A DNA stretch of 60,769 bases, counting the filler, from Basidioascus undulatus (taxonomy: Eukaryota), in assembly GCA_000826855.1 (NCBI GenBank). It is 7 parts of 7 records of this genome, joined end to end, with 100 filler letters (N's around TTAATTAATTAA, not from the genome) between each part and the next. Parts side by side here need not be neighbours in the genome. Positions count along the whole stretch, not along the records: positions 15,549 to 45,240 come from JTLS01000201.1; 6 more parts are not named here. One strand, 5' to 3'. Each line of letters starts with the position of its first letter. Position 1 is the first letter of the stretch. The notes under the pieces were generated by a model that saw only the letters and a program-made list of their open reading frames with translations, did not search any database and was not told where the DNA came from. A program made the position numbers and the translations under genes. Below, in pieces: positions 19,647 through 42,962 of this stretch.

Positions 19647-19720
19647 GGCCGCTTAACTCAGTTGGTTAGAGTGTGGAGCTAATAACTCCAAAGTCGCAGG
19701 TTCGACCCCTGCAGTGGCCA
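19647..19720 (+). tRNA. tRNA-Ile(AAT)
   Basis: GGCCGCT/AGTGGCC acceptor, anticodon arm TGGAG-CTAATAA-CTCCA, T arm GCAGG-TTCGACC-CCTGC. Confidence 0.95.
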
Positions 19721-20126
19721 CTCTCTCTTATTTTGCTGGCCGGTGTGGATAAGCAGATGAGACCGTTGCAAAACGCCTGGGACCCACATCTCCTTTCATT
19801 TTGAGGGCCTACTTTCAATTCTTCGCATACAATTCTCAGTCGTTCGAGACGTGGAAAGGCGTTCAGCTCAGAAGACATTGAACTTATTCAGGATAGAAGA
19901 TAGATGATATGCATTCCCCCACCTCGGGGACATGTTCAGGGAACAGGCATAAACTTTGGGCACCAATCTCAGCGGATTCAAAGTATGGCTGGGGGCCGCG
20001 GAGAGAGCCGATACTTGGTCACTTCAAAACCTATGCACGCTTTCCTTTCCCACCAACTGTCACCTGCACAACTTCCTCGTCTCTCATCATTGGCTCACAT
20101 CTGAAGCTCCACAAACCAGCTCGAAC

Positions 20127-21268: not shown

Positions 21269-22176
21269 TCACTGCTCGCCGTCCTGTGCGGCCAGTCTGT
21301 CTGCTCGCTCCTGAATGTACTTCACCTCTTCAGAGAACCCATTCCTCATGAGCTCCTCCAGCTCCTCTCTGATGCCTCCACATAATGTTCCTTCACAATG
21401 TTGGCAAGCCTCGTACTGCTCCCTAAGGACAGCGTTGACTATGGCCTCATCGTCTCCGCGCCGACAAATGACACCTTGGAGGGCTGGCAGATTGCCTTGG
21501 GTGGTTGGAAGGTCATTGCGGGTGGTGTTACCTGCCCCAGGTGACCGGCTCGGCATGGTCGCCAAGAGAATGCTCTGGAGGGGGTTGTGTGCCTAGAGTG
21601 AGCTTGCTTTCACAGAGCTGGGCCATGCTCGACATGAACTCGACTAGCTGTAAAATGGCCGGGTCTCCGAGGAGCTCAACATCCGTCCTGGCCAGCGTCT
21701 TCAAGCCCTTCACCGCGACCGAGAAACGTACGCCCGCTCGAGCGCGTCGTACATGGTCGCAAGGCGCACAATGTCGAGTGCTTCGCATTTAGGGCGGACT
21801 GCTGGGTTAGACTACTTTCCAGAAACTATAGCGTTTAAGGTCAAAGCAGGAGATCAGTCTTTCTAAAGCGCAAACTCACCTTCCAAAGAGGGAACAGAGC
21901 AACGCCTCGAATGCCTCGGCAGTCTCCCCTTCCACCATGATTGGACGCTCGTCCGAACCGCCTTCTCCTTCCTTTCCTTTGGCTGAGCATGTCTTTGAAA
22001 AATCTCGATGCCTGGACCAGGGAATGCTTGGGTACCCGAAACAGCGTCTTCTCGACCTTCATCATTACCAGTCAGCTGCTGCAAGAAGGAAAGACGATAG
22101 CGCGACACGTACTGTGAAGACTATGTGCCCAGTCCCGTCCGGAAAATAGAAGGTCGAACCTCTGAACCTCAGCCAT
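21269..22176 (-). pseudogene. BTB/POZ-domain protein pseudogene
   Basis: STFYFPDGTGHIVFT|VEKTLFRVPKHSLVQASRFFKDML..EGGSDERPIMVEGETAEAFEALL; at least two frameshifts (after MAEVQR and after MLSQ). Confidence 0.7.
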
Positions 22177-24239
22177 CGAGAAGTTTTATTTGATATCAAT
22201 CTTTTCTTGCGCGCTCCCTATCAAAAGAAGCGTCTGAGAAAGGAACCCCGGGCTGAACATGCGCTTATTCGGTCGGAGGTTGTGGTCACACGGCTGGAAC
22301 ATGGCCCACAGTCTCCTGAGAGATACCTGGAAGCTACGAGCTGGGGAAAAGACTTTGGCCTAGTGGAACAGTAACAGCCTTGGTCGCAGTCGCAACGAAC
22401 TGAAAACTTCCCTAAACATCCAGCACTGAGAGCAGACGCTTCACCGTCGCGTCACGCCGCGCTCTGCGGACTGGCCAAATCCAGCGCACTGCAAGTCCAG
22501 AAGGAGTCATAAAGGGCACTCCGAGTAACTAACTGGTAGGAATAGTGCTTTCGTGGAAGGGGACAACTATCAACGGCACACTGGTGAAACGAGTTCTGGC
22601 GTGACCACTTCGTTTCCCGCTGCAAGGTCCACTCTGCTGCTGCAATAGGTGTACCTGGATCTTTCGAATGAGTAGAAACAGTAATCAGAAGCACTCTCGA
22701 AAGGATTCGCTCGTCTCACCCTGCTCAACGTGCAGTCAGCCATCCCGTGCGTGATCCCAACTGCCTCCATCCGCTTCTCGCCGGATCTTGACGTACCTGC
22801 ACTTCATGCCTTGAAAAAAAAAAAAACCCTTGCTGGTTATGGACACTCTGAAGCCGAGCTGAAAGTTCTGCAGGCTGCCAGATCTCATGTGCATACTTCC
22901 TCTTTCTGGAATGAAGGACTTCTCTGTACCTTGGGCTAGGACGCTAGGGCAGGTCCCAGGGATGGGGACAACGACGGTTGGTGGGTTCACGAGGAGTAGC
23001 GGTGGAGGGAGAGAACGTCTTGGGCGCAAATGGCTTGCAGGAGGACTCGTCGTTGGAATGAATGGAATAAGGTCTCTGTCTTTCACACCCAGAGAACGAC
23101 CACCAGCTCTTGTTGTGGCGGCATCACGGTTTCGCTGCGCCAAGTATCCGCATGTCGGAAGAGACGTGCAACGGCAACCAGTGACTGGAACACTTCAATG
23201 TACACAAGATATCTTCAAGTATTGAAGGATTAGGTACTACCGGAGGCTACAAGGCGGAACACTTTCTATTAGTCGTTCACAACTTCCAGTCGCTGGCAGG
23301 CTTGGTAGCGGATAGGGCAACAGGCGCTGAAACGCTCGCCTGTGCACGGGGACTTTACAACGCACAAGGCACCTACTCGGACGTTGCCTATACTTACGGG
23401 TGTTGGGATCGGCCATAATCTAACGAAAAGAAGGAATGTGGCGCCGTGCAACTGATGCTGCACGCGAAAAGAGTAGTTTGAAAAACCTGATAAAACTACA
23501 TTACAGGCGATTACCCAAGGACAGAAAGCAGATCTGGCAGCCCTGGATGCCAGCTACACAGGCGAACGGCAACGGCTGCAGTCCGACATCGGTCTGTCTA
23601 AGATTGTGTCGCAATGAACCCGATTCTCGATGGCTGGCATTGTTTTCCACAACTACAGCTTCAGGTCTGTGATCATGAGCTGAATTGTTCGAGCACGCCC
23701 AGCGTTTCTACTCTTGCCCCGCAGTGCCCTCTCTGCATCGGATACAGAGCAACAACAGACATCGAGTGCGAGTGTGAATGGGGCGGAGGACATCATTCGG
23801 AGGAAGTAGAAGAACAGGATGACTTTTCTGATCCGATTACTACACCGGGCCACGTCGAGGTAACCGACGAAGGGTGGGAGGCCCTGATAGCACGTTCTCC
23901 CGTTCTGATCCAGAATACGATCCAGCCTGCTGAGCGAGCTCCACCTTCTGACCTTTTGCCATCCCGACAAGATGTCTCTGTAATTACTGATTGATCCAAA
24001 AGAACTGCGATTCGAAGAAGCGCCTGCAGCTACCTGCCAGGTACACAGCCTACCAGCATTTGAGTGCCACAGTAGTCCACGTGTCTGAAACGCAGCTGCA
24101 GCGCGCACGCTGGCGTTGTCGATCTGTACTGCGGAATGGATGTGCTCCTCAGGAGAGATGGCAATGGTAAACGCCTTTCATTCTCGCGTGCGCAAGCATA
24201 AACTGATTGTTTGCCCGTCAACAACGTTATCCATTCGTA

Positions 24240-26737
24240 TCACAAAACGCCCCCACCAACTCCCATCTCCGCAAGGACTTCCCCCGCCTGATGCCTCACG
24301 AGCGCATCCGCATCCGTCTCCCACACGTACCGCACGACCGTCAGCAACCTCGGCCCCACCTCCGGCGGGACGAGTGCGCGCGCGACGTCCGTCTTCCCCT
24401 CGTCCTGCGCGTGTGCTGCAGAACGCAAGAGAAGCGCTAGGAGGAGGAGCGCGCTGCGGCGGAGGGTCGGGTGCTTGGGATCCCGTCCGATAGGCTGCGG
24501 CTCCTCGGCGGGTGCGGCGGCGTCTGACTCGGCGTCGCCGGTGGCGGAAGAGGATGCGCGGGGCGGGGCGGGCTGGCGCTGGACGGATTCCAGGGAGAGG
24601 AGGTCGAGCGCGCCGGAGATGAGGGTGGACGAGTAGGGAAGGAGCGCGAGTGCTGAGGTCGACGCTGCTTGGGCGAGAATCGCGAGCGCCGAGGCGCGCA
24701 GGACGGTGGGAAGGCGCTGCGAGCGGAAGACGGCGAGGAGCGGCGGGATGAGGACGTCCGCTGTGGAGTTGCGATGGATGTTCAGAGTGCGAAACCCCGC
24801 GAAAAGAAACGGATAGAAGAGGGAAACGCACCGTACGCCGGGAGTGTCTGCCCGCAGCGCTGGATGACCTGAATGAGCGCCTCTCCGACCCTCAAGCGCT
24901 TGTCCATCTCCGCCCCCACAACATCCCCGCTCTTCTCCACGCCGCCCGCATACACTTTCCCCAGCGAGCTGAGCACCTCCCTTCCCAGCACATCCACCAT
25001 CCCCGCCAGGCCCTTCACCGCGTTCAAAAAGACGAAGCTGTCCTCGGCCTGGACAGCCTGGAGGAAGACATCCAGGATCCCGGGGACGAGCGCTGGGTCG
25101 AGGGTCGCGCCCGCCCGCGACGGGTGTGCGCGTGTGGAGGACACGAGCTGGCGGAGAAGGTGCAGCCCGTGCGCCCGCACGGGGAGAAGCGGGTCTTGCA
25201 CCAGGCGCAGGGCCTCTTGGTAGGTGGCGCGCTGCTGCTCGTACGCGGAGGGAGTGGTCGTGGTTGCGGAGGAGGAGGAGAAGGGCCTGGACGTGGACGT
25301 GGATGCGGACCGGGCTGAGAGGACCAGCCGCGCTTCGCGGGCCAGCTCGGCGAGCGCAGGGTCTCTTGACGAGGCGAGAGGGTCGAGGCGTGAGAAGATT
25401 ACGCCCAGTAGAGGCGCGTTGCGGATGGTGAGGTCCTCGTGTGCTGTGATCCGCTCCGACGCATCAGCTCGCCATTTATCTCACACCTGAATCAGCCCCA
25501 CCATCAACGCACCTTCCAAGATAGCCAACAGCAGCGTCACCGCAGTGGATACGAGCTCGTCCCCGCCAACATCCACATCTTCATCGTCGCTATCCCCCGC
25601 GAGCCCCGCCTCCTCCTCCGCCTCCACGTCCTCGTCGTCCTCATCCACGATCCGAAGCTTCTCGAGCCCTTCCTTTGCGCGTCGCGCAGCGCGGGCGCGC
25701 GGGCCCTGCGGGTCCGCAGACGGGTCGAGCGCGTGGTTGATGAAGGACAGGATCTGCTCGGGCTGCTTCAGGACGGTCGAGCCGAGCTGCTCGGACATCT
25801 GAAGGACCAGTTGGAGGTAGAGCATCGTCCTACGCGAGACAGTACGCCCCCTCATCAGCATCGCCGCTCCGCGAAGGGGGATGATGAGAGGACACGCACC
25901 GCACAGCGTCCCCGCTTCCCTCCACCGCGTACGTCCGCAAGCCCTCGTACTCCTGTAGCGTCCGCACGAACAGGTCCGCGGCGACGTCCTTCCGGTCGAG
26001 GTCCTTGAGGAAGCGCGTGAAGCGGTCCGGGTCCGGGCGGAGCGAGAGGGGGTTGGAGAGCGCGAGGGCTGCGTCCGTCGGGGCAGTGAAGAGGTCGGGG
26101 GCAAGGTCGATCGGGGGTGGGCTGCGTAGCAAAAAAGCGAGTCAGAGGAAGACGCTGCGAATATCGAAGGAAGGCGAGTACATACCACCCGAACCGGATC
26201 TCCGGCCCCTCGATCGTATACCCCCAGAACAGCTCCGCCTCCTCCTCCTCCTGTACCTCCAGCGCGCCGACCCTCCTCACGCCCCATCCCCTCCCACGCC
26301 TCACAACCTCCCACAGCGCCCTCACGCCCTCCTCGCGGCCCACGACGCGCCCCCATCCCCTGAGGAGCGCGCGCACCTCCTCTTTCCGCACCGGGTCCGC
26401 CAGGCGCTCCTCCTCGAGGTGCGACAAGAGTCCAAACAGCGGTGGGATGACGGGCGTGAGGAGCGCCTCGAAGAGCTTTGGGGAGGGCGGGGCGTGCAGA
26501 AGGAAGAGGGACAGGAGGGTGAGGGCGCGCTGGGTCGCGGCTGCGGTAGGGATGGGGGTGGGCAGTGTGGGCAGGGGCGCAGCAGTGGTCTTGGGAGAGG
26601 GGAAGATGGGCGGAGGGTACTCGAAGAGGGGTGTATAGAGGGGTGACACGGGCGCAGAGCGATCGGGTGGCGGCGTTGGCGGAGAGAGGGACGTGGTGAT
26701 TAAAGGTAGCGGTAGGGTGTATTTCGCATCTGAGGGT
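24240..26737 (-). CDS. RTP1: RTP1/TANGO6-family RNA polymerase II assembly/import factor, C-terminal portion without its own start codon
   Basis: QDPLLPVRAHGLHLLRQLV..FLQAVQAEDSFVFLNAVKGL..DKRLRVGEALIQVIQRCG (RTP1 C1 region); terminal VVRYVWETDADALVRHQA; multiple GT-AG introns. Confidence 0.85.
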
Positions 26738-26802
26738 CTGCATGACGGGAAGCAATCGGATTTCAGCCACGGCAGAGAAGAGGCTACTACGCATCTACGC
26801 AC

Positions 26803-28549
26803 ATAAAGCTGTTTCACCGCACCCCGCGGTTAGCCGTACATTCCCTCTCCTCATCTTACGTTCATCCGGCCTACTCACCTAGTTCCCTTAAACTCCTTCC
26901 TCACGCCCGCCCACGCACCGCGCTCCCTCTCCACCTCCTCGCACACCTCCCAAAGCTCGAAGAACCGTCGCCGCGTCCGCCCATCGATGTCGAGCAGGCC
27001 CGCTACGGCAGCGCGCATGCCCTCCGCGCGTGATACCTCGGTTAGCGACGTCTTGACTCGGTGTGCCATGGCTTCGACCGAGCCGTGCGATACGCCGAGG
27101 GGGTAGCGTCGGCCGGTGAGGCACCGAAGCACTGCGAGAACATCAGAACGAGGGTTAGATGAAGTGCCATTGAGGTGTGCGCAGTGCATAAGCTCGAATA
27201 CATACGGGTCACACCGATCGTCCAGATGTCAATTTCGGGTCCCTGTGAAGCCGAAGACATGTTGACCATGGAGCGAAGCCGAGGAGGCGAATGAAACGCA
27301 CCCAATACTTGATTGCGCCGGGCGGATGCGCGAGAGCGAGGACGATCTCAGGCGCATGGTAGGCCGGAGAACTAAAATAAGAGATGTTAGCTAGTGAAGT
27401 CCAGGGAGCTCGTGGAAGCGCACGCACCCGCAGCAAGTTGTGAGTTTCGCCTCGCTCCTGCTGAAGTGGCTCGACAGCCCGAAGTCGAGCAGGACGAGAT
27501 GCAGCGTCTCCGGATGAACGAGGATGTTCTCTGACTTTATATCGCTGTGAACCGCATCCGACCGCGTCAATGCATGAGCCTCTGTTGGTCTGTAGAGTTG
27601 CTTCCCGCACCGGTGGCAGATCGCGATAGGATGATGCAGCGCGTCCCGGACGACGGATACGAGCTGATCGAGCACCAAACGAGCGATGGGCGGTTCAAGC
27701 CGGCCTGTCCGCGTATGCATTGTTACAAGGGTCTCAAGCGTGATGTACCCGTCCAAGAAGTCCTCTGTTCCACCACTCCCCCGGTCAGACCCTACACGTT
27801 CGAGCCACGAGGGAAGAGGAACACGGACCAACAACATAGCAGTGCCCAGGGGTCGTGATAGTTTCGTACACGGCGATGAGGTTCGGGTGTGGAGGGAGTT
27901 GAGCGAGCAGCGTCGGCTCGCGCATTAGGCGCGTCGCGATGAGCGGGTGGTGCGGGTAAAGAGGGGTGTGCTTGATCGCGTACTGTGACCGCGTCCCGCA
28001 CCACTCAGCCCCTTCTCCCGAAGGTCAATCAGCGGCAGCAAGGGAAGAACGCACAGTCTTTGGCCCTTTCCCTGCCAAGTACACCGCAGAGAACTTGCCC
28101 TTGCCCAACGCCGGCACGGGTTGGAAGATGTAATCGCCGATGCCGCGCGTGAGGAGCTCATCGAGCGAGCGCACGGCAACCGGGTCGAACGAGGTCTGGG
28201 AAGGGGGGCAGGCAGTAGTCAGTGATGTTCAGACTGTGTCTCACACATGTCCCAGGGGTCAACGGTACGTGGGCAGGTGCAGTAGGTGCACTTGATAAGC
28301 CAGGCTCAGACGACCACGGCAACCCAAGGCACTGGCCCACCAGCCCTTCCTCGCTAATGACCACCCAAGCTCAAGCTCAAGACTAGGAGCAGGAACAACA
28401 CGTACCGCCTTGCCAAACGCCCATCTCTCCTCCGGTTCCTCCTCCTCGCCGACTCTGGAGCCCGCGCCAGGGGCGGTATCGGCGGCGCTGGCCGTTCCTT
28501 GAGCCTTCTTGTCGCTTGTGCTCGCCCTGCTGCTGGGCGTAGTTGGCAT
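26803..28549 (-). CDS. Ser/Thr protein kinase (CAMK group); last exons splice in frame into the RTP1 sequence
   Basis: LGKGKFSAVY, YAIK, HPNLI, ICHR|DIKSENILV, DFG, CCG|SPAYHAPE, GPEIDIW; the start at 28549 is tentative. Confidence 0.88.
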
Positions 28550-30707
28550 TCGATTCGGCGGTGGGAAACGAAGCCCCGAGAGCGTCGAGCTGAATGATTA
28601 TGAGCAGATGGATGTGGGCAAACGCAGGCAGGCCGTCAAGGCCACCCACCGCTCACTGGTGGACAGCGGGAGATGATAAGGGTGCGCTCGGAAGCAGGCA
28701 GCAATCAAACGGCGGCGTCATGGCGCCACTACAGTTTTGCACGTGTTCATTCTGCGTGTTCCTCCCTATCAAACGAACTCTAAATAGCTACTGCAGCTTC
28801 GAAAGGCACGGACTGATTTTCACTGCGAAAATCAACAGCACCTGCTGCTATCCTCTCTCGACGATATAGCAAGCACGATTCTGAAAGCGTCCTCAATATG
28901 ACTAATATGTAATGGCAAGTCCCGATAGTAGCCAGCCTGCCGCTTCCACCCACGCAATGAGGCTCTGAGCTCCCAAGGCGCTTGACATGCGGGCTGCGAT
29001 TAAGCACATGCGCCGAAGCCATCGAAGCCACACCGATAAGTGTGCACGTCCTGGGCCAAGCACTCATTAATATTCATCTCAACCATCAACCTTATCCAAA
29101 TGAGAACGAACGATCGAGAATAGCGAGAAGCAGGAGGCACCGACGCGTGAGCGATGTGAGCCTTGACAGCTCGCTACTTCCAACGTTGATGCCCACGTTT
29201 AGCCGTAAACTGCAAGCTGTAGTGCGAATGAAGAGGCTCTATAAGTAAACTCATCCAGACACACAAAGAGCCACTGGAAAGAAGATGGGTGTACACAGGC
29301 TGCAGCCGATAGCCAGATTGAGAGGCGGCTGTCTTCTGAAACTGCTGCTCAGCTACATTCCCGAATGAGGGTTGGGAGTACAGGCATGTCACTCACATTA
29401 GCTCTAAATAAATCTTCATCGCACCCCTAGAATTTTCTGACTTATTCCCAATGCTGCCCTTTCTGGGCTGCCTCTCTCGTCTGAACTGTTTTACGCTCTG
29501 CGAGCACGTAGCCTTTCCAATCCCTGCTCCTGGTTCTCTGGTCCTCGGTTGAATACTCCATACAATTTGTTGGAAAAAAATTTAGTACTCAAAAGTAAGC
29601 ACATAAATACACCCGCTGTCACCCCTACTTCTTTCGCTCCATCCGGACTTGCACCCACTCGCGCAACCCTCTCCACCCCAACGGACTCCGCCCATGACCT
29701 CGGAGGTAACGCCCAGAAGGACAGCTTAAGTATTCTTTAGAGCTTTTTTTTTTTTTTGGCTAGACGACCGGTCAGACCGTGATGTCCGGGTCCTACAGAA
29801 TACCAGTGGAATATGGAGAGCGCGCCAGAGGCCCAGAAGTACTCATCGTCCCTGTACATAGCTGTTCGAGCTTGAAACGGAAGCTGTAACAGACTAAAAC
29901 AGATTAGAGGAAAAATATCTCAGTTTCTTGACGATCCAAATACGGGTAGTCGAAAGACGTCGAAGAAACCCTTCGTAGTTACAGTCGCGGGACCATGGAT
30001 CCGTCCCCTTGGAAAATGGAGTAAGCCGTCAGACGTCCTTGCCTCAGTAGTTCAGGGGCCATCGAGGTGTGTGCTACATTTTCTGAAGCTCAATTAATCT
30101 ATCCACAAGCTCATCAGAGGAATGCTACAGCTTTAACATTGATTATAGTCTGTGCCAACGAGGCTCTGCTTCAGAGCTGGAGGATAATATGTGCGATGCA
30201 ACATTCCCGCTTTCAGCCCTATGTCTCGCAAACTGTACTCCGTGACTAATTATTTCGAAAACTTTCATTTTGAGAGGATTTCACATCTTGAGTCTGTGAC
30301 CCAATTTTTTCCAGAAAGTATCATTGCCTGGACTGTCACGGCTTCGCGATGAGGTTCAAGATTCCTATCTTGCTTACCCATCTTATCCACACGTAAGGTG
30401 TCTCTCTGGAAAAAACAACTCCCCTCAAGCGTGAGTCCACCTTTGAACGAGATATGTATCACAGTTGCTCGACAGTCGCCGCATGAGGCTGTCTTCTTTT
30501 GCTGAGTGTGCTTGCTGAGCGAGAACCTCCACCGAGATGGCGTCTTCGCGTCTCCCGGCTTCGCCTTGTGCCGGACTTCGGACGCCGCTGGCTGCCAGCA
30601 TTCTCTTTCTCCTACAACGAGTATCCAGACTGCATCTTAGAGCGATACCCTCGCACTTACTGCCATCACTCATACCCGCACTAACATTCCTGATTCCGGG
30701 ACTCAAA

Positions 30708-32690
30708 ATGTCTTCCACTTCGCCTCCTTCGCTTCTTCCGAACGCGTCGACCCTGGACTCTCTCCTCACCACGCACACGCGCGATCAAAGCTCGCTGGCC
30801 TTCGCCATGCTCCTCGCCTACTCACCCTCCCGCGGCGGGCTCCTCTACAGTGGCAGCGCGGGCGCGCCGCTCCGGCCGAACGAGGAGCCCGTGGCGCCCG
30901 CGGACGAGCCGGACTTGCTCGACGGTCGGATGTGGCTTGCGAGCTGCACCAAACTCGTCACGACCATCGCAGTGTTGCAGCTTGTCGAGCAAGGCAAGAT
31001 TAGCCTTGAAAGCAAGTTGGCGGACTTCGTAGAAGAGGCGAAGGAGGTCCGGTTGTTGAAAGGCTTCGACGGGAACAAGCCGGTGCTGGAGGGGGAGACG
31101 GGGCCCGATGGTATTGGAAGCACCATCACTGTCAAGCAGCTTCTCACTCATACCTGTACGCTTCAATGATCTGCCCTAAATCGAATCTGAATGACGGAAG
31201 CTGACCGGATCGCAACGCTCTCCGCTTACCAGCTGGTTTCTCCTGCACGTCTTCCCTCCGCCTCCAGCTGGGAGACGTTATTCTGGGACTAACCTCCGTT
31301 TCATACGGTCTCTCTCAGACGAGTTCGAGAACAAGAGCCTGCCGCTTTATCGCCAAGCCAAAGGTTTCGAACCCATCGCCGCCGGGACGGTCGATTCCAT
31401 CGCCAAGCTTCCGCTCGTTTACCCGCCCGGCCAAGGCTGGGAGTACAGGTCAGTCTGCGATGCCAAATGCTGATATCCACAATTAGCATGGACGGTACTC
31501 ACTGTGCGAGCTACCAAACGCTTACAGTGTCGCGCTCGATTGGGCTGGCTTCATCGTCGAGCGGATCTCGGGCTTGAAGCTGGGCGAGTACGTCCCGAGA
31601 TGTAATCTCATTCGCCGCTCTCAATCAATCCTCACATCTACCTCAGATATTTCCAGAAGCATGTATTCGATCCCCTCCAAATCACCGACATCAACTTTGG
31701 CCGGCCGCACTCCCCGTCCGACGAGCTGCCACTCGCTTTCCGACCGCGCTCGGCGCCTTCGACGCCATCGACGCCTTCGTTCGAGGCACCTACCCCGCGT
31801 CCACGCCTTCCTCTGAGCGCGGGGCCTTCGCCGCGCCCACGGGATCCCCCCGCAGACCTCGGCGGCGGCGGCCTGCACGGGAGCGCGAGGTCGTACATGC
31901 GAGTCCTCGCGGCGCTGCTTCACGGCGGTGTCAGCCCGGACACCGGCGCTCGCATACTGAAAGAGGAGACGACGCGCGGGATGTGGAAGAGCGCGCTAAG
32001 CGAGGAGCAGGAGAATGCGCTGAACGAGAATCTGAGGACGAAGAGGAAGAGGGAGCATACGTGGATGGCTGAGCATTGGGCGGAGGATAAGGCGGTGGAA
32101 GAGAAGAAGAATCGGTATACCTGGGGGTAAGCCAAGAAGAATTAGCCTTGGGGACTTCGCTGATATGGAGAGGCAACCTATCTGAACACGCAGCATCGGC
32201 GGGATGATTACCAAAGAGGCGTTGCCTAGCGGTCGCGGCGCAGGCTCCTTCTTCTGGGCTGGCCTTGGTAACGTTCGTCTCCTTCCTTTCATTTCCTCCA
32301 TCCTCACTCGAACAAAACATACAGAGTCGTCTGACGCCCGATCCAACAGACGTACTGGTACGCCATGACTCGCCTCGCATGCGTTCGTGCGGCAGCACCC
32401 GACATTCTGGTTTCTGCGCAGGTTCATCGATCCCGTCAACGACCTCGCCGTCTTCCAAGGAACTCAGATTCTGCCTTTTGGTCAGTATTCATCCCCCACC
32501 GAACACCTTGACCGTGTCAGTCTGACGCCCAGATGATACCGCAGCTGACCCGGCATTCTTCGACCTCTGGCGCGAGGTGCGCTTTTCCCGCCTGTTTCAC
32601 CAAATGCTGGCTTATCTTTACTTGCCGTCTTCTCAGCTCGAGGCGGAATTGTATAAAGGACTCGCGCAGGTGCCGCAGCGTAATGATTGA
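30708..32690 (+). CDS. Beta-lactamase-fold serine hydrolase (LovD/EstB-like), multi-exon
   Basis: SxxK motif WLASCTK, LLTHT, PGQGWEYS|VALDWAGFIVERISG, GGGGL, FFWAG, FIDP; stop at 32690. Confidence 0.9.
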
Positions 32691-32891: not shown

Positions 32892-35049
32892 TTATCCCGA
32901 TCCGACGGATGATACCGAATTTCGAAACGCAGGATTCGCAGCCACCGCCTGTTGTACTTCATACTCGAAAGGTCCCTGTTCAGAACCGGACGCGTGAGGA
33001 AGGACGCGTGAGGAAGGACGCGTGAGGAAGGACGCGTGAGGAAGGACGCGTGAGCAAGGCGACGAATCGCTTGGAGAAACTTGCGCTATTGACTTACCCT
33101 GTTCTCCGCGATCCAGTCGCGAAACAGCTGGTTCTGCTCTGCGGCGTAGGTTGCACGCAGCTCGGCGCACGCGCCAAATTGTTCAGGCCGATCCCGCATA
33201 GCCTTCTCTTGCACTTCCAGAGGCTGTTTTGAAGAGGTTGAACAAGTCAGCATGCGCGATCCGGGAGAGCGAAGGCGGGCATGGATAGCGCAGGGACTCA
33301 CTTGGAGCAGAAACAGTCCCAGTATGCTTCTCGACGGTTCGGGAAGATTCACAAATTGCTCAGGGATAGACAGCGGTGGTGCGATGGAGGGCGGTGGTGG
33401 GGAACGAGGGCGATGCGAGAGAGATAGGGTTGTCGTGAGAGAGGAAAGGTGCTCGAGCGAGTTGGATGCTAGAGTCGTAGCGCGCTCGAGACGTCGCTAT
33501 GCAAAAGGCGAATATCGGTCAGTCGAGTGCTGCCTGCACGGACGCTCGTGGAAGTGAGTGCCGCCTACAAGTCGCTCGTCCTCCTCGGACTCTTCCGGAG
33601 AAACTGGCAGCGGCTGGACTTTCGCGTTGCGCCCTTGCGCGGCGGCGGCCAAGATGGCCAGCGTAAGCGATTCGACGGATTCGAGCTGATTGACTTCAGC
33701 GAGGTAGAATGCTTTGTCGACGCTATCGAGATGCTCGATGGCGGCGGCTCTATCCGTACAAGAAGACGGGTCAGCGGAAACAATACGTCCAGTCGGTGAG
33801 GCGAACGTTCCACGCACATATCAGAAGGTGGAACGGTTACAACAGCGTCAAAGGACGCAGGGGGGACTGGGCGGTGAGGGAAAGGGAGGAGGCCGGGAGG
33901 AGGAAGAGGCGGTGGGGGAGGAGGTGGTGGTGCCGGTGAAGGAAGCGGTTGAGCGGTGGCGACCGAGGATGACGGCGGCGCAGGTGACGGAGTGGGAACG
34001 AGTGAGGGCGGAGCAGGAGGCGGACTGGACGCCAAGTCGACGACCGCGCTCGGCGCAGGTCCATCCCAGCCATCCAAAAGCGGGTCACCTTCGGGCACCC
34101 GACTCACACGGACCGCTCGCAGCTGCTGCAGCTGGACCGTCACGCTCGTCAAGGTGCCTTGCATGTCCCCGCCAATCATGAAACTTCCCACGGTGCGCGC
34201 TGCCTGCGCCGGGTCGGAAAACTCGGCGTATGCGACGCGTCGGTTGGCGGTCCCCATCTTGGTGAGGACACCGATTGGCTCGAAGTGAGCGCGTTGGGCA
34301 AGGAACGCACGCGCGTCGAGGCCGTGGGGCAGGCCGGTGGGTGAGGAGACAAAGACGGTACAGGGATCGAGAAAAGAAGTGGTGGCGGCGGCGGCTACGC
34401 CAGAAGCGCTGCTGTAGAATGCGACCACACCCTTGTAAAGAAACGAGTCTCAGCCGTGCCTCGCGAACATGGAAAGGCCCCGCATTCCTACGTACACAAG
34501 CATTGTTGTCGGCGTCAGGCATACCGCTCCTCCAGACGTACTTCACAGGACTGAAGCGTCGAAACATCGTGTAGATCGATGCTAGGCGGCGCGATTTCGG
34601 GACGCCTGCAAATTGATAGAGGTCGGTGCGTTTGAGGGGGTCTCTTCCTGAAGGGGACCACGAAAGGGAGATCCGAGACTGCGACGGAGGTAAGAGAGTG
34701 AATTTCGTGAGGATGGCGTATGCTCGTTCTGCCTGCGGGAGAAGGTGAACTGTGTTTAACAGAAGACGCGACGCGACGTGAGAACCACTCACATCTGCTA
34801 TCGTCGCAAATGAGAGCTTCGCCCCATGAACGGGCACGTTGTCGTCCGGACCCCACTGCCAATCAAGGCTGCAGAGTCCTTCAGTTTAAGATCGCCTACA
34901 GTGCCCGAGATAAGTGCGAGATAGACACACTCGGTGTTCGGGCACTGTGCATACATCTCGACATGATACCGCACTTGTTGCAAGTCACCCTGCACGACCC
35001 CCGAAAGATAGAGATACGGCGCTTTGGCGAGAGGGTGCGCCAGGCTCAT
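32892..35049 (-). CDS. Divergent Rrm4-like RNA-binding protein (three RRM-like regions, Pro-rich linker, degenerate MLLE-like tail)
   Basis: HPLAKAPYLYLSGV, QAERAYAIL, IYTMFRRFSPV, VVAFYS, FLDPCTVFV, RRVAYAEFSDPAQAAR are collinear with Ustilago Rrm4 blocks as I recall them; GT-AG introns keep the frame to TAA at 32892. Confidence 0.65.
32988..33057. repeat. Minisatellite, 5 x 14 bp GGACGCGTGAGGAA, in the last intron of the Rrm4-like gene
   Basis: Four perfect units and one with a single mismatch, no spacers. Confidence 0.95.
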
Positions 35050-41200: not shown

Positions 41201-42962
41201 GAATCCCGGACGAAAGAAAGCGGGCCGGAAACGAGGCACGCACAGGTCAAACGACTTCCACAAGTGGTAGATCGAGCTCGTGCCGGGCGAGGTCCCGACG
41301 TCGAGGAGGACGCAGACGTTGGGCTCCAGGATCTCCGCGAAGGCCGAGCTGCACACGCATGCTGTCAGTCAAAGGAAAGAGAACGGGGAAGTGCGGAACC
41401 NGGGGGGGGGGGGTGGAGAGAGCGACGCACAAGAACCACCGATGCGAGTTGATCTTCTTCTGGTTCTTTTCCTTGAGGCAGAAGATGACCTGGACGGGGA
41501 CGAGGTGCGACCCACGGTCGAGCGTCATATCCGGCTTGACGGAGACTGTTTCCACCCATCAGCGTCACCCAGCCCAACCTCAATCATACAGGACGCACTC
41601 TGGGTGGTGTACTCGTAGATGTCTTTTCGCGGCAGGTGTCAGGAAAGGGAGGTGGTGCAGATGGAAGGGAAGGAGGGAGAAGGACGCACGTGCAGTCACC
41701 TGCTTCCCCTGCACGACGTTCTTTGCCACGCCGTCCTGGTAGATCCCCTGCGCGGCGATGCACGACAGCGTGCGCGAGTTGATCTTTTGCCGGCCATCCG
41801 AGACGATGCAGACGACGACCTGCCATGTCCCCCTAAGTCAGCTGTTGGAAGTGAGAGATGAAGGCGGAGGGGCCGGCGCGCCTTCTTCCAGCCCTCGTCG
41901 CCCCACGTCTTGGAGCGCGAACGCGAGCAGAGGTGTACGACGTTCTGGATGACGGCGTCCATCGTGCGTGCATACAAGAACTCCTCCTCGTTGTACCTGT
42001 CCCCACCCCACTCTCATCAGCCTTCTCCTCCCCTCCTCTTCCAGCCACTCCGACGCACATGGTCAAGACGATAAAGATCTCTGTCCGCCGCGGCGGGCTG
42101 TACAGCTGCTGGCGGAGCGTGTAGTTTTCCTTCTTGAAGTCGTGCGGGTCGCACGTTGCCGCCGTGTAGCGCATGTTGGTGAACTCGCGGTCCGTCGTCT
42201 CGCGGCAGCCGGCGAGAACTTTCGAGGGCACGGGACAGTCGAGGACCAGGTTCCCCTGGAAGAGCGGGATGCGCTTCGTCGTCTTGTACCGGCGGGGAAC
42301 ACGCTGTGGGATCCGCCCGTACCGGATGTTGTTGTCGTCCTGCCCATCCATCCTTCAACACTGTGCCCTGCAACGAGCCGGAGGAAGGAAGACCCACGCT
42401 CTGTTCTGGATCAATAAATCCCCCGGGCATAACCGGCCCGCCGATGCTCTCCGCGCCGGGCGTATGCCCCCTGAGCAAGCCCTGCGCCTCCCACTCCTGG
42501 CTCTGGCGCGGCCCGCCCCCCAGCGGCTCGTCCCCGCCGTAGCCCAGATCGCCAGGGGCAGCGTAGGGCGGGTCGTACAGCTGCGTGCCGCCCGGGCGGG
42601 GCGCGGTCGGGTCTGGGCCATACGACGTGTCCTCGACGACGGGGACGGGGCTGCCTGGCGCTTGGGGGAAGGCGGGCGCCCCGGGCACAGGAGCGAGGTA
42701 GTCTGGGTAGGCGTAGGGCGCGCCGCCTGGGAGAGGAGGTAGGGACGCGGCGTGCGCGTCGGAGAACGGGTGGTCGTACGGGTCGTGTGCGGGCGGAGCG
42801 TGGAACGCGTCGGGCGCGGAGGGGTAGGGGGGCGTGTAGCCTGCGCCGGCAGGGGGGTGCAGCGGGTAGCCGTGCTCGTCGATCTGTGGGGGGAGGTTGA
42901 GCTCGCGTCTGGGGATTTATGAGTATGAGATGTGAACGCACGTCTGGATGGTATCGTGACAT
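38240..42962 (-). CDS. Chitin synthase (division 1), many introns including microexons
   Basis: [90 protein letters not shown]. Confidence 0.97.

What the first reader, a model, noticed from the sequence alone, without database searches (positions are those of the whole stretch)
24240..28549. In-frame fusion of a Ser/Thr kinase to an N-terminally truncated RTP1/TANGO6
Seen: the kinase exon ending KEFKGT-AG|gtgagt (70-nt intron with GCTAAC), a 6-nt exon CTTTAT and a 65-nt intron lead into PSDAKYTLPLPL..PVSPLYTPLFEYP..QRALTLLSLFLLHAPPSP, which continues without a stop into RTP1. RTP1 has no ATG or promoter space of its own and gives roughly 700 aa, versus about 1000 in typical Rtp1. A 9-bp direct repeat AGAGGGGTG (26625, 26637) sits near the likely junction. 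Inference: a chimeric kinase plus Pol II import factor formed by deletion between neighbouring genes, or a misassembly.
Basis: partly seen in the sequence, partly recalled or inferred. Interest (0 to 1): 0.75.

Follow-up and report, generated by a model that had tools for sequence, protein, structure and literature searches.

The report
False kinase–RTP1 fusion from chimeric assembly
The apparent fusion of a protein kinase with an RNA polymerase II import factor in this fungal genome is most likely an assembly error that joined halves of two ordinary, separate genes at a hard-to-sequence G-rich spot.

Summary
The open frame is real: 14 exons, 1,099 aa, kinase then RTP1. All 13 introns, including the 6-nt exon, are spliced in cDNA-like contigs. 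The join is at 26537-26540 (4-nt overlap), not at the 9-bp repeat.

In sample S1, DNA contigs run through that point into different sequence on each side, and spliced kinase and RTP1 lie on separate contigs. The 'lost' RTP1 N-terminus is intact on contig C743 of the same assembly. C743's RTP1 end carries 27-39 bases of 28S rDNA, a second chimeric join about 50 nt away. G-quadruplex motifs flank the join and are enriched at this assembly's contig ends (18 of 69 vs 18 of 632 interior tiles).

Against: a 2014 run (X2) holds the join in its contig graph, with unknown read support, and the kinase 3' half was not found in the assembly.

Verdict: chimeric-fragment misjoin about 0.88; real rearranged allele in one culture about 0.10.

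The parts
26541..28549 (-). 5' part of an ordinary Ser/Thr protein kinase gene (exons 1-9 and the start of exon 10; aa 1-424, whole catalytic domain)
   Evidence: Model; Gly loop, YAIK, HRD, DFG, APE motifs; Pkinase E 1.9e-7 on one frame (31.2 bits, cut-off 31.7); splicing in X3 record 14
26803..26808 (-). 6-nt micro-exon of the kinase gene
   Evidence: X3 joint 26737-26879 with these 6 letters between (table 5c)
26625..26645 (+).
   Evidence: covered by X1 record 3 and X3 record 14
26549..26617 (+). Two canonical G-quadruplex motifs (26549-26577, 26593-26617) on the kinase side of the join
26537..26540 (.). The join: 4 letters that fit both genes; exact base uncertain because five laid pieces each show one unlisted mismatch near an alignment end
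   Evidence: X1 record 1 fits 22000-26540 then 2,406 other letters; X1 record 3 fits 26537-31000 after 5,390 other letters; X3 records 13 and 14 split at the same places
26508..26534 (+). Canonical G-quadruplex motif on the RTP1 side of the join
24240..26536 (-). 3' part of an ordinary RTP1/TANGO6 gene (5 exons, about 675 aa); its 5' part is on contig G000:C743 (ATG at 1685, minus strand, running to the contig start)
   Evidence: RTP1_C1 E 2.7e-33 and RTP1_C2 E 5.4e-6; profile positions 374-1026 here and 23-367 on C743; splicing in X3 record 13

Best explanation
Two normal, separate single-copy genes were misjoined in this short-contig assembly. Shown: both genes continue into their own sequence at 26537/26540 in sample S1; the RTP1 5' half is in this assembly on C743; C743's RTP1 end is itself joined to rDNA; G4 motifs flank the join and mark many contig ends. 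Inferred: (1) read depth drops at the G4 tracts in both exons, so the true paths break; (2) rare chimeric library fragments, made by mis-priming or template switching between G-rich tracts with a few matching bases, are what remains; (3) the assembler extended the RTP1 3' half through one such fragment into the kinase and the RTP1 5' half through another into rDNA; (4) the join is in frame by chance (one in six for two exons, counting strand and frame). The real genes encode an RTP1 of about 1,091 aa (length inferred) and a kinase with up to about 390 further residues.
For:: X1 (depth 41-42) has unbroken contigs through both sides of the join and no junction contig; its bin depth of 44.4 is fully explained by the listed pieces. 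X3 has separate spliced contigs, the kinase one running 1,192 letters past the join. RTP1 5' half on C743 (409 aa open, E 2e-57, hit by 81 of 120 homologues); the halves fill profile positions 23-367 and 374-1026 without overlap. C743 bases 1-27 equal LSU rRNA exactly, followed by 2 mismatches and 10 matches. X1 record 1's length fits a 48-nt in-frame gap plus C743 up to 30 nt into its tRNA-Arg (one-in-three chance on its own); its other end lies inside tRNA-Ile; 3 of 7 G4 motifs in the 29.7-kb contig cluster at the join; 1.3% of the contig lies within 15 nt of one. G4 at 18 of 69 contig ends vs 18 of 632 interior tiles (P 2e-10). X2's graph breaks with an exact 30-nt overlap where the normal kinase diverges, which suggests a second exit in that library too (inference).
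Against: X2 (2014, another study) holds the joined sequence in a contig, with 26 kinase-only letters (under the tool's 31-letter rule for bridging). No normal RTP1 or kinase continuation was laid from X2. So the join is in sequence data and not only an assembler slip; how many independent fragments support it is unknown. The kinase 3' half was not found in the assembly, and no relative's tail was available to search with. G4 motifs are also sites of real recombination (PMC5773480, search listing only). Three runs are at most two samples, and both X1 and X2 are flagged as possible sources. Library method is not on record.
Confidence: 0.88

Rival explanations
1. A real G4-associated rearrangement in the culture sequenced in 2014, or in some of its nuclei, joined kinase 5' to RTP1 3' in frame. 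It would give a kinase-driven protein with RTP1's C-terminal repeats; sample S1 is the unrearranged form.
For: X2 record 6 carries the join as the main path of the RTP1 3' half. The 24- and 26-nt normal continuations are absent from the assembly. A 4-nt overlap arises at 2.2% of random pairs and suits microhomology-mediated repair (established knowledge).
Against: It needs a third partner, because RTP1 5' is joined to rDNA and not to the kinase tail. X2's graph breaks exactly where the normal kinase leaves. S1 shows no listed difference from the window over 9 kb yet lacks the join. G4 tracts end contigs throughout this assembly. Loss of the gene is costly elsewhere: Rpb1/Rpb2 stay cytoplasmic in yeast (PMC8136413) and mice die as early embryos (PMC10943085).
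Confidence: 0.1
2. One reading: a deletion between neighbouring kinase and RTP1 genes, perhaps at the 9-bp repeat, removed the kinase tail and the RTP1 N-terminus.
For: Same strand and in frame; kinase 3' half not found in the assembly.
Against: The RTP1 5' half and upstream DNA are in the same assembly. Upstream of RTP1 lie tRNA-Arg, an amidinotransferase-like gene and a further gene start, with no kinase tail recognised. The repeat is 85-105 nt from the join.
Confidence: 0.015
3. A fixed, lineage-level kinase-RTP1 fusion gene.
For: Open spliced frame in the window.
Against: None of 120 listed RTP1 homologues (of 147 found) carries a kinase Pfam domain. The kinase part hits 0 of 259 fetched proteins. 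Sample S1 has both genes intact.
Confidence: 0.005

Closest known systems
RTP1 / TANGO6 family (Pfam RTP1_C1 PF10363, RTP1_C2 PF10304, ARM_TANGO6 PF23565)
   Same: C-terminal domains above cut-off. The two halves together cover profile positions 23-1026 of 1036. Best exon identity 57%, to Agaricomycotina proteins.
   Different: In the assembly the gene is split over two contigs with a gap of about 48 nt. Nothing indicates a different protein.
Eukaryotic Ser/Thr protein kinase (Pkinase PF00069)
   Same: All canonical motifs lie before the join; exon-level Pfam hits.
   Different: Subfamily not assigned: no close relative returned, and Atlas hits were generic kinases. The C-terminal tail is missing from the window.
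Chimeric-read misjoins and G4-associated gaps in short-read assemblies
   Same: G4 motifs are depleted from Illumina assemblies and linked to polymerase errors (PMC7757076, passages). Chimeric molecules give many misassemblies in amplified libraries (10.64898/2026.06.11.730069, passages). Here contig ends are G4-enriched and one carries an rDNA tip.
   Different: Neither paper's passages describe this pairing of G4 dropout with chimeric rescue; that step is my inference. Whether this library was amplified is not on record.

Membership tests
Real gene fusion | Join present in independent DNA data | tested here: inconclusive
   Absent from X1 (depth 41-42); present in X2 with 26 kinase-only letters; X2 may be the source of the assembly
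Real gene fusion | Fused spliced transcript | tested here: not met
   X3 gives separate contigs that leave the window at 26537 and 26540; contigs drop rare forms, and X3 is sample S1 only
Real gene fusion by deletion | Intervening DNA lost from the genome | tested here: not met
   RTP1 5' half, promoter and upstream genes on C743
Real gene fusion | Same architecture in relatives | tested here: not met
   0 of 120 listed RTP1 homologues with a kinase domain; kinase part vs 259 proteins, 0 hits; closest relatives were only 57% identical
Chimeric-fragment misjoin | Both partner loci intact in other data from a near-identical genome | tested here: met
   X1 records 1 and 3, X3 records 13 and 14; no listed difference from the window in X1
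Chimeric-fragment misjoin | Orphaned halves elsewhere in the assembly | tested here: inconclusive
   Met for RTP1 (C743); kinase tail not found
Chimeric-fragment misjoin | Short homology at a hard-to-sequence site, with other chimeric tips nearby | tested here: met
   4-nt overlap; G4 motifs on both sides; rDNA tip on C743
Chimeric-fragment misjoin | Few or duplicate raw reads across the join | not testable with these tools
   All three runs are held as contigs only
RTP1/TANGO6 | RTP1_C1 and RTP1_C2 domains | tested here: met
   114.9 bits vs cut-off 25.9; 26.4 vs 21.1
RTP1/TANGO6 | N-terminal helical-repeat region | tested here: met
   On C743, profile positions 23-367, E 2e-57; not in the window. 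The PF23565 genome search rang nowhere, controls included
RTP1/TANGO6 | Role in Pol II assembly and nuclear import | not testable with these tools
   From literature only (PMC8136413, PMC10943085)
Eukaryotic Ser/Thr kinase | Gly loop, catalytic Lys, HRD, DFG, APE motifs | tested here: met
   aa 79, 96, 197, 218, 243

The most novel reading that the evidence does not exclude
A real G4-associated rearrangement in the culture sequenced in 2014 made an in-frame kinase-RTP1 allele (with RTP1 5' joined to rDNA), placing an intact kinase domain on the C-terminal two-thirds of a Pol II import factor. It would show G4 tracts in fungal exons acting as spontaneous translocation sites.
Probability: 0.08. 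Interest if true: 0.4.

Novelty: not a real feature. Interest (0 to 1): 0.06.

Why it matters
As biology it most likely does not matter: two ordinary genes. Practically, a cleanly spliced, in-frame fusion can be an assembly product, and in this assembly joins or contig ends at G-rich tracts should be distrusted; annotation here would create a false domain architecture. If the allele were real, it would be a one-culture mutation of modest interest for G4-driven rearrangement and for RTP1 domain requirements.

Tried and rejected
The 9-bp repeat as junction: rejected. Kinase stopping unspliced at 26875-26877: rejected. Second copies of either half in the assembly: one match each.

Homologue searches with the junction exon and with kinase exon 8 found nothing (weak evidence). 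The junction exon found 172 proteins in the representative library, 150 listed, nearly all matching through the RTP1 stretch. The metagenome scan gave 5 distant kinases of 533 candidates, no use for gene order. No PDB sequence hit. PF23565 genome search uninformative. No RNA holder is listed on record; X3 is treated as cDNA only because it skips introns.

X3 contig depths (214.7 vs 25.9) are not used as expression evidence. The X2 difference at 24513 lies in a G-rich context and may be a sequencing error (inference). An idea that this contig was merged after numbering, from its out-of-order length, was dropped: lengths form interleaved series. One other of the 69 ends (C2800) matches 25 nt of the rDNA contig's spacer; low complexity, not counted as a chimera.

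Earlier scan notes: none found. One literature search for Rtp1 + kinase + gene fusion + fungi gave 2 papers, neither relevant by title and abstract start; this is not an exhaustive test of print.

Full report
Setting. Window places 15549-45240 are one 29.7-kb contig (C1124) of a 32.1-Mb assembly in 2,992 contigs. RTP1 homologues point to a basidiomycete fungus, best exon identity 57%. I did not identify it further.

The observation. A minus-strand model from 28549 to 24240 has 14 exons and one terminal stop, 1,099 aa. Residues 1-424 hold all canonical kinase motifs. RTP1_C1 and RTP1_C2 pass their Pfam cut-offs in the last two exons. A profile from 53 of the 120 listed RTP1 homologues (those of 900-1,100 aa) matches from aa 423 at profile position 374 of 1,036 and does not match aa 1-424. 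Of the 88 homologues of at least 850 aa, 85 begin aligning before aa 480. So the window does show a kinase joined in frame to an RTP1 that lacks about 370-400 N-terminal residues.

Other sequence data. Three public runs hold the stretch, from at most two samples and two studies, all kept as contigs; X1 and X2 are both flagged as possible sources of this DNA. X3, from the same sample as X1, skips all 13 predicted introns in 12 joints and keeps the 6-nt exon, so it behaves as cDNA. In X1, one contig fits 22000-26540 and then has 2,406 other letters; another fits 26537-31000 after 5,390 other letters. The depth in the join's bin is fully accounted for by the listed pieces, so no junction contig was laid. 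In X3, the kinase contig leaves the window at 26537 and runs 1,192 further letters, and the RTP1 contig leaves at 26540 and runs 19. X1 shows no listed difference from the window over 9 kb. The join is therefore at 26537-26540, and in S1 both genes are intact and separate.

The result against this reading. X2 (2014) has a contig covering 22000-26566, with 26 kinase-only letters beyond the overlap, and a second contig covering 26537-30292; they overlap by exactly 30 letters. The joined words are thus in X2's data, though below the tool's 31-letter rule for bridging. The break falls exactly where the normal kinase diverges, which suggests a second exit in X2's graph, but no such contig was laid, and the tool warns that some records are filtered out. 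Contig depth is one figure per contig, so support at the join is unknown. Five laid pieces each carry one unlisted mismatch near an alignment end; I could not place it, so the exact base of the join is uncertain.

The missing N-terminus. A full-length homologue finds it on contig C743: six exons from an ATG at 1685 to the contig start, 409 aa open, profile positions 23-367, E 2e-57, hit by 81 of 120 homologues. Upstream lie tRNA-Arg, an amidinotransferase-like gene and a further gene start; I recognised no kinase tail there. This contradicts a clean deletion between neighbours. The first 39 bases of C743 match contig C68, inside the LSU rRNA gene: 27 exact, 2 mismatches, 10 matches. So the RTP1 5' half ends in a chimeric rDNA tip. 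If X1's contig ends 30 nt into tRNA-Arg, as its other end lies inside tRNA-Ile, the gap between the halves is 48 nt, in frame, giving 1,091 aa. This is an inference, and the frame fit alone has a one-in-three chance. The 24- and 26-nt normal continuations are absent from the assembly, and the kinase tail was not located.

Why here. C1124 has seven canonical G-quadruplex motifs; three lie at 26508-26534, 26549-26577 and 26593-26617, and 1.3% of the contig is within 15 nt of one. By eye, the normal RTP1 continuation printed is also a run of G tracts. G4 motifs occur in 18 of 69 contig ends (60 starts that I picked at spaced numbers plus 9 ends already held; C743's start left out) against 18 of 632 interior 100-nt tiles, P 2e-10. 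Passages of PMC7757076 report fewer G4 motifs in Illumina assemblies and polymerase errors at them; passages of 10.64898/2026.06.11.730069 report many misassemblies from chimeric molecules in amplified libraries. No supplements were read.

Mechanism. Shown: intact genes in S1, the orphan RTP1 half, the rDNA tip, the G4 context, and the join in X2. Inferred: true paths drop out at the G4 tracts, rare chimeric fragments formed between G-rich tracts with a few matching bases survive, and the assembler follows them, once into the kinase and once into rDNA, usually among the most abundant templates. An in-frame result needs only a one-in-six chance between two exons. I put this at 0.88. A real rearrangement in the 2014 culture (0.10) explains X2 but needs three partners and leaves the graph break unexplained. 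It also disrupts a gene whose loss mislocalises Rpb1/Rpb2 in yeast (PMC8136413, passages) and kills mouse embryos (PMC10943085, passages). G4 sites can be real recombination sites (PMC5773480, search listing only), so it is not excluded. Deletion between neighbours (0.015) and a lineage-level fusion (0.005) are contradicted: none of 120 listed homologues has a kinase domain, and the kinase part hits none of 259 fetched proteins.

Verdict. Most likely not a real feature. Both genes are ordinary members of known families; the kinase subfamily was not assigned. One literature search found no such fusion, and earlier scan notes held nothing. Interest 0.06. Raw-read counts at the join in X2, or junction PCR, would settle the remainder.

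Noticed in passing
L012 (G000:C743) 1-39: The contig starts with 27 exact bases of LSU rRNA, then 2 mismatches and 10 matches, running into the RTP1 exon: a chimeric tip.
   Followed up: yes
contig ends across G000 (L018-L037, L042-L081, window segments): G-quadruplex motifs are strongly enriched at contig ends (18 of 69 vs 18 of 632 interior tiles).
   Followed up: yes
L081 (G000:C2800) 1-25: 25-nt, 96% match to the spacer part of the rDNA contig C68; low complexity, either chance or another chimeric tip.
   Followed up: no
window 28196-28405: The first kinase intron is 210 nt, against 56-74 nt for the other twelve; X3 skips it with 'between: not known', so a micro-exon inside is not excluded.
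   Followed up: no
window 28689: The spliced kinase contig of X3 runs 997 letters beyond 28689 that were not shown laid there; possibly upstream untranslated exons.
   Followed up: no
window 24513: X2 reads G where the window, X1 and X3 read T, in a G-rich context; possibly a sequencing error.
   Followed up: partly
L012 2356-2427 and 2968-3942: tRNA-Arg(CCG) and an amidinotransferase (ADI/DDAH-like) gene lie upstream of RTP1.
   Followed up: partly
window 19647-19721; about 32990-33050; 41401: A tRNA-Ile gene and a short tandem repeat coincide with the far ends of the run contigs; a single N sits before a G run at 41401.
   Followed up: partly
table (P0002, P0007, P0010, P0048 and others): Several database RTP1 proteins are annotated joined to Myb-domain or eRF3-like neighbours; whether these are gene-calling merges was not tested.
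   Followed up: no
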